Shown here: one piece after another, positions 30,736 through 63,085 of the stretch
Position numbering within the stretch: the stretch's first letter is position 1
Layout: each line of letters starts with the position of its first letter
Origin: Flaccisagitta enflata
Lineage: Eukaryota
Length of the DNA stretch: 64,000 nucleotides
Direction of reading: 5' to 3'
NCBI GenBank assembly: GCA_965153355.1
Contig: OZ231126.1
Span: forward strand, 13,640,001-13,704,000
Translations under genes and position numbers: made by a program
Notes under the pieces: generated by a model
What the model was told of the DNA's origin: nothing
Databases searched by the model: none
The model's input: the letters and a program-made list of their open reading frames with translations, nothing else

Positions 30736-33700
30736 ATGTTTCACCCAAAAACTACATCGATCGATCTTGTTGGATTCGGCTGTCCTATGATTGATATCAC
30801 AGTGAAAAACGTGCCTAAAAGTTTCTTTGAGGAAAACCAGTTGCATCCAGACGCAACCTATAGACGATCCAGGCAGGAAATCAACCGAATACTACACCAG
30901 TTATCGGGTCAGTGACTTTTGTTGTATCAAAAGTAATTGTTGCAGAAGTATGCAATGGATACACTTTTTTTTTTCAAAAACCCTTTAAATTGAGATATTC
31001 TCTCTGACTCTCACCGTCCTATACTCTAGACAAAGCGATCTATTCTGCAGCCATACAGATTGTGGAGAAGCGGGAAGCGCCGCTTCTCGGAAGCAGGGTG
31101 ACAGGGTCGGAAGGTCTTGCAATATAGCATGAGAAAAAAATTAAAAATTGAGAATTTCACTTAAGAAGGGAATTTGAACAGTTGTCTCAAATCATTTTGC
31201 ATCATACTGCATTCTACTTGTCGGAATCTTGCATGGAAATTTTCTGCTTCTCGGAAGCATGGAAGAATATTAATATCTGCTATTCTGGATCATGTTTATT
31301 CTCAGTATCAGCCCTTTCCTCATTGCGTGCCTTCGTGATATGGTCAAGTTGCCTTACATGGAATTCACATTCTTTTAGTCCATGCAAATTTGGATCGACA
31401 GACAGTTATGCTATTGACAATCTCTTCCCCGCGATATTTCAAATTAGGTTCAGAAGACGGATATACAACCAGTTTTGGAGGCGCCACTGACAATGTCATC
31501 CGCGGGGTCCAATGGCTGCGTTTTAACAAATGTCTCAAATCATCTTTCCATGGTGAGACAGATAATGGGATATTCGATTTTCAGTAACACTGCGTATAAA
31601 ATGTCTGTCTCTTGCTCGCTCGTCCTTTTTTTCATGATTGTATAGCATCTAATTTTGCACTGCTCTGTCTCGTTACAAACTTGCTACTAGCTCAATCACG
31701 ACTCAATCTCTCATTAAAGAATAAACGGCCTCATTTTGACATTTGCAGATGAAAATGATGCTACCACCTCTGAAAAACCAGACGCTTCTCGCCATGGCTA
31801 CCACGACTCAATAACTAATGTCATAAAAGAGGAAAATAAAGGGAAAGAAAATACACAAGGGTGGCCTAACTTGAAAGACGTGTCTGAAATGAATATTTGC
31901 TACGTCGGGTGCATTGGTGACGATGAAGAGGGAAAGAGAATCGAAAAAGACTTTGAAAGGAGGGGAATCAAAACATGCTTCAAAGTGGCGCATGCTGTTA
32001 GAACAGGTATGAGTAAAATGAGCAAAACGAATCAACGGGATCTGAATGAACAATGTCATTGGACCTAAGTCGCGTGCGTCGGCACTTTCAAAAAAAGTCA
32101 GGCAGACAGACAGACAAATGATTTTTTTCAAAAAGACATTTGAAACAGCTATTTACTTCTCTAAATTTGTTTCCACTACTAAGAGACGTTAAAACACGAT
32201 AAAAAGCCTATAAAACGACTTTGTGACCAACGAATCGACGGACGGATGGACGGACGGACCAACGGACCGAAAAGTGGCTTATAGAGTCGCGTAGCATGCG
32301 ACTAAAAATGAGATTGATGCCAAATGAAAGCTTTTTTTTCTGAAAAAGTGTCTGGTACTTCATCTGGTTGCCATTTGTTTTTCACAAAGAGACAGTGAAG
32401 TCTGGCGGTATAGAATCATTAGGGATTTAGAGTCACTGTTTCTTTTCTTGCACAGCTTGCTGCTTGATACTTATTCCGGCGCATGGAGATCATCGATGTC
32501 TTATTACAGATATTGGTGCAGCCAAAGAATTGGATGAAGAGTTTATTTTGCAATATACTGTCCAAAGAGTAGTGCAACAAGCAGAGGTGAGTGACTTACC
32601 AAGACAAAGGGTGTGTTTCTACTCAAAGGTACAAACGCGTTTCTCATGTGGGTTTTGCAAATCGCGATTTTACTTCACTCTCCCTGAAAAAAAGTGAAGG
32701 CACAAGAAAGATTCGAACTCTCTCCAAACTGCCTTGTGATTTCAGCTTCTTTGAATTAGAAGTTAACGCCCTTACCAACCACGCCATTAGGGCAATCACT
32801 CGAGTTAGTGGAATTTCGGTGGCCTTATTCTACAACTTTATATCAATTTATGGGGGTTCAGTTCTGTAATTGCCATCTTATTTAATTGCGTCTCTATTAA
32901 AGAAGTATAACAGAAATAATTTTTAATATTTGAGTGAATGTCTCAGTGGGGCAGGTGGTTAAGGCGTATGCTTCTAGACTATTGTAATATATTGCTTTTG
33001 AGCGTGGGTTCAATCCCTGCAAGAGGCCAATGTTTTTAGTCGCGGACAAGCGACTCTATAAGAGGCTTTGTCCGTCTGTCCGTCCGTCCGTCCGTCGGTT
33101 GGTCCGTCGGTCGGTCCGTCACGCTCGAGTCGAAAAGTGGGAAAACACGCATTTCCGCCCCTGCCCACCCGTCCGCGACTGGTATTGGCCGTGTATCCGG
33201 CCTTGTTTTCAGGATGAGGGTGGTGAAAATCGCGAATTGTAAAACCTACCTGAAAAACGTGTTTCTGGCTTTGAGTAGAAACGCACCCATTGAATATGAA
33301 TAAAGGTTTAAAAGAGGACTTCATCTAGGGTCCTAACTTCGCGAGCGATTGAGATGCACAAAGAGTTAAAGCAAGTTATGTATGTGTAGTTCAAGTTTGG
33401 AAACTATCAAAGTCATCCGTTAAGTGCAATGATTCCACCAAGGACGTTTTGTGACAGGGGGTCCGGGTCATCGGCGGATCTTTGTCATAAGTGTTCTTTT
33501 GTTGACCTTCCTTCAGTTAGGGGGGGTCATACAGGGTTGATTTTGGAAATTCCTTATGGAACTCTGGAATCTAGGGGTTGGTTTTGTGTAAAACAGGTTA
33601 GAAAATTTTTTGGGTATCTCCCTTTCAAGGAAAAATAATCCATTTTTGATAAAAAATGAGGTAAGCGATAGGCGAAAATCGAAAAAAATTGCGAAAATTA

Positions 33701-63085: not shown

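What the first reader, a model, noticed from the sequence alone, without database searches (positions are those of the whole stretch)
32587..61118. A 28.5-kb intron of an adenosine-kinase-like gene holds a cluster of three secreted lectin/pattern-recognition-type genes
Seen: the N-terminal (30.7-32.6 kb) and C-terminal (61.1-63.1 kb) kinase halves join in phase 0 and continue the family alignment (QQAE|VVYITSF). All other introns of this gene are under 700 bp. The intron contains two C-type lectin genes (-), an ApeC-like gene (+) and layered transposons and satellites. Established: C-type lectins and ApeC-domain proteins are secreted microbe-binding effectors in invertebrates, and adenosine kinase controls adenosine levels. 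Inference: this may be an intronic immune island, built by transposon-assisted insertion and possibly co-regulated with, or interfering with, the host gene.
Basis: partly seen in the sequence, partly recalled or inferred. Interest (0 to 1): 0.75.

Follow-up and report, generated by a model that had tools for sequence, protein, structure and literature searches.

The report
Two genes nested in kinase intron
A marine animal's adenosine-kinase-like gene has one long, repeat-filled intron holding two (not three) genes for secreted proteins, an ordinary gene-within-gene layout, though one guest encodes an unusual short-headed protein predicted to assemble in threes.

Summary
The layout is real in the assembly; the 'immune island' is not supported. 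The kinase halves form one open 559-aa, 7-exon frame around a 28,532-bp GT-AG intron (others 196-684 bp); three exons tested are single-copy and alleles show purifying selection (pN/pS about 0.3). The splice itself is untested: 0 of 12.2 million RNA reads lay on exons 1-4. The intron is at least 55% repeats. It holds two genes, not three: the two 'lectins' are phase-1 modules behind one signal exon, frameshifted here but open in other alleles. The 'ApeC' gene fails the ApeC definition: a signal peptide, five 23-aa helical repeats and a 71-aa, six-cysteine head without DXED. It shares a 2-kb duplicated block with a copy 420 kb away. Multi-gene nesting is common and usually means divergent, not shared, expression (PMC5174743). 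The better lead is the head: conserved in 18 outside loci, unmatched in PDB, and predicted to self-assemble as three copies (0.85 vs control 0.00).

The parts
30721..30907 (+). Adenosine-kinase-like gene, exon 1 (ATG; phase-1 donor)
   Evidence: aligns to kinase N-terminus
31048..31279 (.). High-copy hAT-like miniature transposon with 8-bp target duplication in intron 1; absent from other haplotypes; not an exon
   Evidence: (joints skipping 240 and 234 bp; very high depth)
31448..31552 (+). Kinase exon 2
31749..32006 (+). Kinase exon 3 (PfkB match; single copy in genome)
32049..32303 (.). Polymorphic SINE-like insertion in intron 3
   Evidence: joint skipping 255 bp in both DNA runs
32456..32586 (+). 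Kinase exon 4, ends at the phase-0 donor of the long intron
32587..61118 (+). 28,532-bp GT-AG intron (inferred; splice not seen in RNA), at least 55% repeats
   Evidence: position absent from 3 of 3 paralogues inspected
33429..37162 (.). Nested inverted-repeat (foldback-type) elements
37871..40955 (.). Element with internal 29-bp satellite; inverted relative about 12 kb beyond the window end
41298..41338 (-). Candidate last exon of the lectin gene (weak)
   Evidence: phase-1 acceptor, stop after 13 codons
41636..41798 (-). Lectin gene: second half of C-type lectin domain 2, phase-1 donor
42548..42768 (-). Lectin gene: first half of C-type lectin domain 2, phase-1 acceptor
47327..47777 (-). Lectin gene: C-type lectin domain 1 exon (phase 1-1); one extra base in an A run near 47630 and a Cys-to-Ser change in this assembly
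   Evidence: open alleles P0013, P0015, P0016 at this spot
47833..47911 (-). Lectin gene: signal-peptide exon (the only one found adjacent; none between the two domains)
50096..58138 (+). Duplicated block (about 2 kb of homology to C1:14.119-14.121 Mb, broken up by about 6 kb of insertions) that carries the stalked-protein gene
56385..56486 (+). Stalked-protein gene exon 1: signal peptide, phase-0 donor
56670..57365 (+). Stalked-protein gene exon 2: five 23-aa helical repeats and a 71-aa six-cysteine ApeC-like head (57150-57362)
61119..61601 (+). Kinase exon 5 with low-complexity insert (single copy; alleles differ by in-frame indels)
61886..62138 (+). Kinase exon 6 (PfkB match, anion-hole motif begins; single copy)
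62823..63086 (+). Kinase exon 7 with stop

Best explanation
A single, divergent but still selected adenosine-kinase paralogue has one intron that grew to 28.5 kb by piling up transposons and satellites and has served as a landing place for two unrelated duplicate genes for secreted proteins: a two-domain C-type lectin gene on the opposite strand and a stalked ApeC-like gene on the same strand. Each guest has its own ATG and signal exon and is most likely transcribed from its own promoter; the kinase pre-mRNA runs across both and the spliceosome removes the whole stretch. The three coexist because they are expressed at different times or places, not because they are co-regulated. Shown: frame, splice signals, copy number, allele constraint, repeat load, duplication of the stalked gene. 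Inferred: the long splice, separate promoters, order of arrival, separate expression.
For: One open 559-aa frame, halves in order on one strand with neither gap nor overlap against kinases; exons 3, 5, 6 each match once in the genome; allele variants in exons 1-4: 7 synonymous on 142 sites vs 7-8 replacement on 539 sites, pN/pS 0.26-0.30, binomial p 0.014-0.022, and all 7 listed indels lie outside exons. Intron at least 55% repeat; transposon insertions segregate even in the short introns. Stalked gene shares intron, upstream and downstream DNA with a copy 420 kb away, 74-85% identical. Lectin exons repeat the phase 1-1 module of a three-domain paralogue on C7. In Drosophila nesting arises typically by insertion of short young duplicates into long introns, 461 of 833 expressed pairs are in complex nests, and nested pairs have the most divergent expression of any class (PMC5174743, abstract and passages).
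Against: No RNA read on kinase exons 1-4 in 12.16 million reads (about 6% of one run; upper bound about 0.36 RPKM), so neither transcription nor the long splice is shown. No full-length protein spanning the junction was found (none of 2006 candidates; only exon-sized alleles). No record bridges the intron. A same-strand guest with its own intron is the less common, riskier arrangement (PMC5174743). Two secreted, possibly sugar-binding guests in one intron is a low-probability event for any one stretch (a lectin domain is expected in 0.5-1.8% of 28.5-kb stretches), though there are very many long introns to choose from.
Confidence: 0.68

Rival explanations
1. Co-regulated intronic immune island: the guests are microbe-binding effectors kept inside the kinase gene because shared regulation with adenosine control is useful.
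For: Both guests are secreted and of lectin or ApeC-like type; domain 1 keeps the EPN and WND motifs; ApeC proteins bind microbes in amphioxus and molluscs (PMC8361754, PMC9585378, passages).
Against: Two guests only, unrelated, with kin on different loci; lectin domains are common genome-wide; the head lacks the ApeC hallmarks; lectin domain 2 lacks EPN and WND; broken lectin alleles exist (this assembly, P0016); nested pairs are mostly not co-expressed. No expression or conservation data.
Confidence: 0.07
2. Assembly error or haplotype-specific structural variant: the halves are closer together in most chromosomes, and the middle was mis-placed or is a private insertion.
For: No record bridges the intron (pieces end at 32609 where a high-copy repeat begins); many insertions are polymorphic here.
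Against: No N gap; lectin exons and the stalked gene occur at this place only, with distant paralogues, so the middle is not a duplicated haplotig; both intron ends are shared with other individuals (P0018 reads about 28 codons of intron upstream of 61119); old, interrupted homology inside the intron.
Confidence: 0.12
3. Interference and chimeric splicing: the same-strand guest cuts into the kinase transcript. Its two splice sites are both phase 0, as are the ends of the long intron, so kinase exon 4 could join the stalk-head exon in frame, or the guest's signal exon could join kinase exon 5, and the full kinase would be a minor product.
For: Phases match; mis-splicing is likelier for same-strand nested genes with introns (PMC5174743 passage); kinase RNA was not detected.
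Against: Both halves keep frames across alleles; no AATAAA or ATTAAA within about 900 bp after the guest's stop; no read evidence for any chimera.
Confidence: 0.13

Closest known systems
Nested (intronic) protein-coding genes, including complex nests with several internal genes (Assis 2016, PMC5174743; mammalian survey 10.1101/2023.05.02.539096)
   Same: Small, few-intron, recently duplicated guests in the host's longest intron; one guest on the opposite strand.
   Different: Host is otherwise a compact gene with short introns; one guest is on the same strand and has an intron; expression of all three unknown.
Adenosine kinase (PfkB family, PF00294)
   Same: N-terminal G.G.P..D motif, GG..N motif, N..E motif and DTNGAGD present; intron before the 'TG-C' segment and inside DTNGAG shared in place with a paralogue.
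   Different: 22-30% identity to outside kinases over aligned blocks, long low-complexity inserts, and an intron position lacking in 3 of 3 paralogues inspected. Activity untested.
Multi-domain C-type lectins (PF00059) of this genome, e.g. C7:53.188-53.194 Mb
   Same: Each domain is a phase 1-1 exon module; 41-51% identity.
   Different: Two domains; domain 2 is split by a 749-bp intron absent from the C7 and C8 paralogue exons examined; this assembly has a frameshift in domain 1.
ApeC-containing proteins (PF16977; PMC8361754, PMC9585378)
   Same: Secreted; the WP.G.YC...G.CP.GF start of the head matches profile positions about 73-99.
   Different: Head is 71 aa, not about 200; 6 cysteines, not 8; no DXED; sits on a helical repeat stalk; predicted to assemble as three chains.
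Collectin / C1q-type stalk-and-head trimers (recalled, not from a call)
   Same: Signal peptide, elongated stalk, small C-terminal head, predicted three-chain assembly.
   Different: No collagen; head is neither C-type lectin nor C1q; no structural match found.

Membership tests
Nested gene arrangement | Guest lies wholly between two exons of the host in the genome | tested here: met
Nested gene arrangement | Host transcript is spliced across the guest | tested here: inconclusive
   0 reads on exons 1-4 in 12.16 million; no full-length protein found
Co-regulated immune gene cluster | Three or more related or functionally linked defence genes | tested here: not met
   Two unrelated genes
Co-regulated immune gene cluster | Shared induction on challenge; conserved linkage in relatives | not testable with these tools
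   No challenge data; no related genome held (header)
Adenosine kinase / PfkB | PfkB profile match and catalytic motifs | tested here: met
   Exon 6 at the cut-off 25.8 bits, exon 3 E 0.0014; motifs in the 559-aa model; blastp to kinases E 2e-12
Adenosine kinase / PfkB | Phosphorylates adenosine | not testable with these tools
   needs an assay
C-type lectin | Lectin_C domain over the Pfam cut-off | tested here: met
   42.9 and 36.7 bits vs 22.6
C-type lectin | Intact frame and four core cysteines in domain 1 | tested here: inconclusive
   Broken in this assembly; frame open in 3 of 3 outside alleles that cover the A run; the cysteine present in 1 of 3 alleles that cover it
ApeC domain (PF16977) | About 200 residues | tested here: not met
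   71-aa head ending at the stop; same length in the complete outside relatives
ApeC domain (PF16977) | Eight conserved cysteines | tested here: not met
   Six
ApeC domain (PF16977) | Three DXED motifs (can be mutated in true members) | tested here: not met
   None in the window head or in 18 of 18 outside loci
ApeC domain (PF16977) | Pfam score over the curated cut-off 26.5 | tested here: not met
   23.7; 17.7-24.3 in 8 of 8 heads or relatives; 20.2-25.4 in 5 of 6 homologues, no match in the sixth
ApeC domain (PF16977) | Same fold as ApeC | tested here: inconclusive
   No PDB match for two monomer models; no ApeC sequence or structure was on hand to compare
ApeC domain (PF16977) | Binds microbes or peptidoglycan | not testable with these tools
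   needs an assay

The most novel reading that the evidence does not exclude
The plus-strand guest belongs to an undescribed family of secreted stalk-and-head proteins whose 71-residue head is a single ApeC-like repeat; three chains assemble on a coiled-coil stalk to rebuild, from three copies, what canonical ApeC (about 200 residues, three DXED motifs) builds in one chain. The head is 56-72% conserved in other marine animal-like contigs and also caps a bacterial fibre-like protein, so it would be the small, foldable ancestor-like unit of ApeC and a new collectin-like recognition architecture.
Probability: 0.4. Interest if true: 0.55.

Novelty: new member of a known kind. Interest (0 to 1): 0.3.

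Why it matters
The nesting itself adds one more example to a common pattern and would matter only if co-regulation or in-frame chimeric splicing were shown. The by-product matters more: if the 71-residue head is a self-assembling single repeat of ApeC, it offers a small, tractable protein for the structure and ligand of a lectin-like domain of aquatic invertebrates for which my searches found no solved structure, and a concrete route from homotrimer to single-chain domain.

Tried and rejected
1) An 8-exon kinase model with an exon at 31030-31113: rejected; that stretch is a high-copy polymorphic transposon. 2) Halves of two tandem kinase copies: rejected; exons 3, 5, 6 match once each (3, 5 and 2 candidates scored, so very divergent copies could be missed). 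3) 'Decayed lectin pseudogene': withdrawn after open alleles were found; an early idea that its acceptor was mutated was dropped as unsafe. 4) RNA test of the junction: no reads on the gene; the 36 reads laid were partial matches to a SINE. Only the 5' half was laid, so the guests' expression was not examined. 5) Full-length kinase protein across the junction: none; kinase exon 5 in JGI metagenomes: 0 of 93 candidates. 6) Further genes in the intron: Pfam scan of 54 of 99 non-simple ORFs (the other 45 were satellite, SINE or already scanned frames) found only simple-repeat matches. 7) Canonical ApeC in the genome: 0 of 5 candidates, but the control also rang nowhere, so uninformative. 8) Fold of the head: no PDB match by sequence or structure (best Z 2.8-2.9, Foldseek E above 1); a monomer model of an obligate trimer would be expected to miss. 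9) ESM Atlas: best 0.77 (ApeC) for the window head and 0.84 ('short-chain collagen C4-like') for P0004, both under 0.9, leads only. 10) One prokaryotic genome hit (L070, 31 residues, E 4e-5): not followed, likely chance.

Full report
Setting. The window is C1:13,640,001-13,704,000 of a 794-Mb, 9-contig animal assembly with no relatives held. Runs that hold the 3' part are two DNA runs of the same organism label and marine metagenomes. I did not try to name the organism.

The host gene. Scanning GT/AG sites gave first an 8-exon model. Laying DNA contigs on 30300-33050 showed that its second 'exon' is a very high-copy element that other haplotypes lack (joints skipping 240 and 234 bp), bounded by an 8-bp duplication, which is the hAT pattern (recalled). 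Without it the gene has 7 exons and one open frame of 559 aa; introns are 540, 196, 449, 28,532, 284 and 684 bp, all GT-AG. The joined region aligns without gap to outside kinases P0009 and P0011 and to a single uninterrupted exon in 3 of 3 paralogous loci inspected (L004, L005, L012), so the halves are complementary and the intron position is particular to this paralogue; two short-intron positions are shared with the C8 paralogues. Exons 3, 5 and 6 each match once in the genome. The genome has other, more typical adenosine kinases on C4 and C8. Allele differences in exons 1-4: 17 rows at 16 places; 7 synonymous on 142 sites against 7-8 replacement changes on 539 sites (three adjacent changes in one codon counted once), pN/pS 0.26-0.30, p 0.014-0.022; all 7 listed indels are outside exons. 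Exon 5 alleles differ by in-frame indels in a low-complexity insert (P0008, P0018). So the gene is under constraint.

What is not shown. In the one polyA run (12,162,974 reads, about 6% of the run) no read lay on exons 1-4; all 36 reads laid were partial matches to a SINE; the metatranscriptome run X8 likewise covered only the SINE. The bound is about 0.36 RPKM; the 95% likeness filter and short exons may lower recovery. The splice is therefore untested, not refuted. No full-length protein across the junction was found, and no contig bridges the intron.

The intron. At least 55% of it is tandem repeat or matches elsewhere in the window or in 188 kb of other fetched loci (a lower bound). It holds nested inverted repeats, a 29-bp satellite element with an inverted relative just beyond the window and many SINE copies. 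Tandem-repeat cover (23%) equals that of the rest of the window (24%). A Pfam scan of 54 of 99 remaining ORFs found no further gene.

The lectin: one gene, not two. Both domains pass the Pfam cut-off. In the closest paralogues each domain is an exon that begins and ends in phase 1, three in a row on C7. The window repeats this: signal exon 47911-47833 (phase-1 donor), domain 1 at 47777-47327 (phase 1-1), domain 2 at 42768-42548 plus 41798-41636 (phase 1 in, phase 1 out), and a weak last exon at 41338. The same filter found no signal exon between the domains. In this assembly domain 1 has one base too many in an A run and serine for a core cysteine. Metagenome alleles P0013, P0015, P0016 are in frame at that run, P0015 also has the cysteine, and P0016 has a different shift further on, so the break is an assembly slip or a private allele. 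Lectin domains are common here: 150 of 150 scored candidates matched, of 503.

The plus-strand guest. Exons 56385-56486 and 56670-57365 give 265 aa: signal peptide, five 23-aa helical repeats, and a 71-aa head with six cysteines and no DXED. ApeC is defined as about 200 aa, eight cysteines and three DXED motifs (PMC8361754, PMC9585378; passages read). The match is under the cut-off and covers only the start of the head, profile positions about 73-99 of 208. It is ApeC-like, not ApeC. One paralogue (73% over the head) lies 420 kb away. Colinear homology of 74-85% covers the gene's intron, upstream and downstream DNA: about 2 kb there against 50096-58138 here, the excess being inserted repeats. 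That is DNA-level duplication, not retroposition; which copy is older is unknown, and nothing shows a transposon carrying it.

The head is a family. Of 34 pattern matches in metagenomes 18 were confirmed; 15 complete animal-like ones end exactly at the same CCK-stop with one head, 56-72% identical, two are cut short, and none has DXED. Where the N-terminus is visible it is a signal peptide plus a short helical stretch (L056, P0004). L068 lies among bacterial-type genes and puts a four-cysteine head at the end of a fibre-like protein. A monomer folds with middling confidence (pLDDT 67 and 77) and matches nothing in PDB. Three copies of the last 90 residues scored 0.85 against a best control of 0.00; runs agreed in at least 97% of contacts, pLDDT at least 85, and the tightest contacts are head to head. 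The mark was reached by 21 of 30 microbial proteins solved as pairs of one chain and 0 of 23 single chains; in eukaryotes by 17 of 29 (animals 7 of 16; 1 of 7 without an older solved relative) and 0 of 30 single chains. The job had three copies, unlike the calibration, the alignment was not used, and two or four copies were not tried: this supports self-assembly, it does not show a trimer. That ApeC is itself built of three repeats is my inference from its length, its three DXED motifs and the place of the match, plus recall; I could not test it. Four literature searches (listings only) turned up no ApeC structure and no description of such a short head; the library lacks most subscription papers, including the main ApeC survey (Li et al. 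2021, seen only as a reference), and I read no supplements, whose alignments may include short forms.

How it most likely works, and what is known. Nearly 10% of Drosophila genes are nested, 461 of 833 expressed pairs are in complex nests, nesting comes typically from young duplicates landing in long introns, and nested pairs are the most divergent in expression (PMC5174743; abstract and passages). In mammals most hosts hold fewer than four guests, usually in the largest intron, and most pairs show no correlation (10.1101/2023.05.02.539096; passages). The locus fits this: a repeat-swollen intron with two independent guests, tolerated through separate expression (0.68). Rivals: same-strand interference with in-frame chimeric splicing, possible because all four splice sites are phase 0 (0.13); assembly error or private structural variant (0.12); co-regulated immune island (0.07). 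Lectin and ApeC genes are enriched among dispensable genes in lancelets (PMC12373286; passages), which fits turnover rather than a fixed island. An earlier scan note on another genome judged a similar nest ordinary; I did not check it.

Verdict. Observation partly confirmed; interpretation partly supported; a new member of a known kind; interest 0.3. The most novel reading left open is the single-repeat ApeC-like trimer (probability 0.4, interest 0.55 if true).

Noticed in passing
window 57150-57362 (+); L052-L069: The 71-aa ApeC-like head is a conserved stand-alone family ending in CCK-stop, without PDB match, predicted to self-assemble in threes.
   Followed up: partly
L068:2521-3189 (+): A bacterial-context, fibre-like 222-aa protein ends in a four-cysteine version of the same head.
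   Followed up: partly
window 31048-31279: Polymorphic hAT-like miniature transposon; one haplotype shows a clean empty site (240 bp shorter), another an empty site with two extra letters, like an excision footprint.
   Followed up: partly
window 41799-42547 (-): The intron splitting lectin domain 2 is absent from the C7 and C8 paralogue exons examined, adds one codon and is flanked by a short direct repeat: possible recent intron gain; it holds a 225-bp high-copy repeat.
   Followed up: partly
window 47749 (-): An alternative acceptor would bypass the lectin frameshift in frame, at the cost of scrambling the first about 40 residues of domain 1.
   Followed up: no
window 56486/56670 vs 32586/61119: All four splice sites are phase 0, so in-frame chimeras between the kinase and the stalked gene are possible.
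   Followed up: no
window 56761-57107: Stalk repeat number is 5 here, 4 in the paralogue and 2 in two metagenome alleles (may be short-read collapse).
   Followed up: no
window 37871-40955 and L030:1882-4857: Two inverted copies of a satellite-bearing element flank the guests and the kinase 3' half.
   Followed up: no
window 264-5221 (+): Cysteine-rich exons and a VWA-domain exon (E 1e-7) of another secreted-type gene.
   Followed up: no
window 6486-7538 (-): 350-aa intronless, hydrophobic, receptor-like ORF with no Pfam match.
   Followed up: no
window 13730-14023 (-): SHIPPO-repeat (sperm-tail PG-rich) exon.
   Followed up: no
L029:7163-9999 (+): Ionotropic-receptor exons (SBP_bac_3, Lig_chan) 7-10 kb beyond the window end.
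   Followed up: no
G000 C8:19.562-19.583 Mb (L004, L005): Two near-identical adenosine kinase copies in inverted orientation.
   Followed up: no
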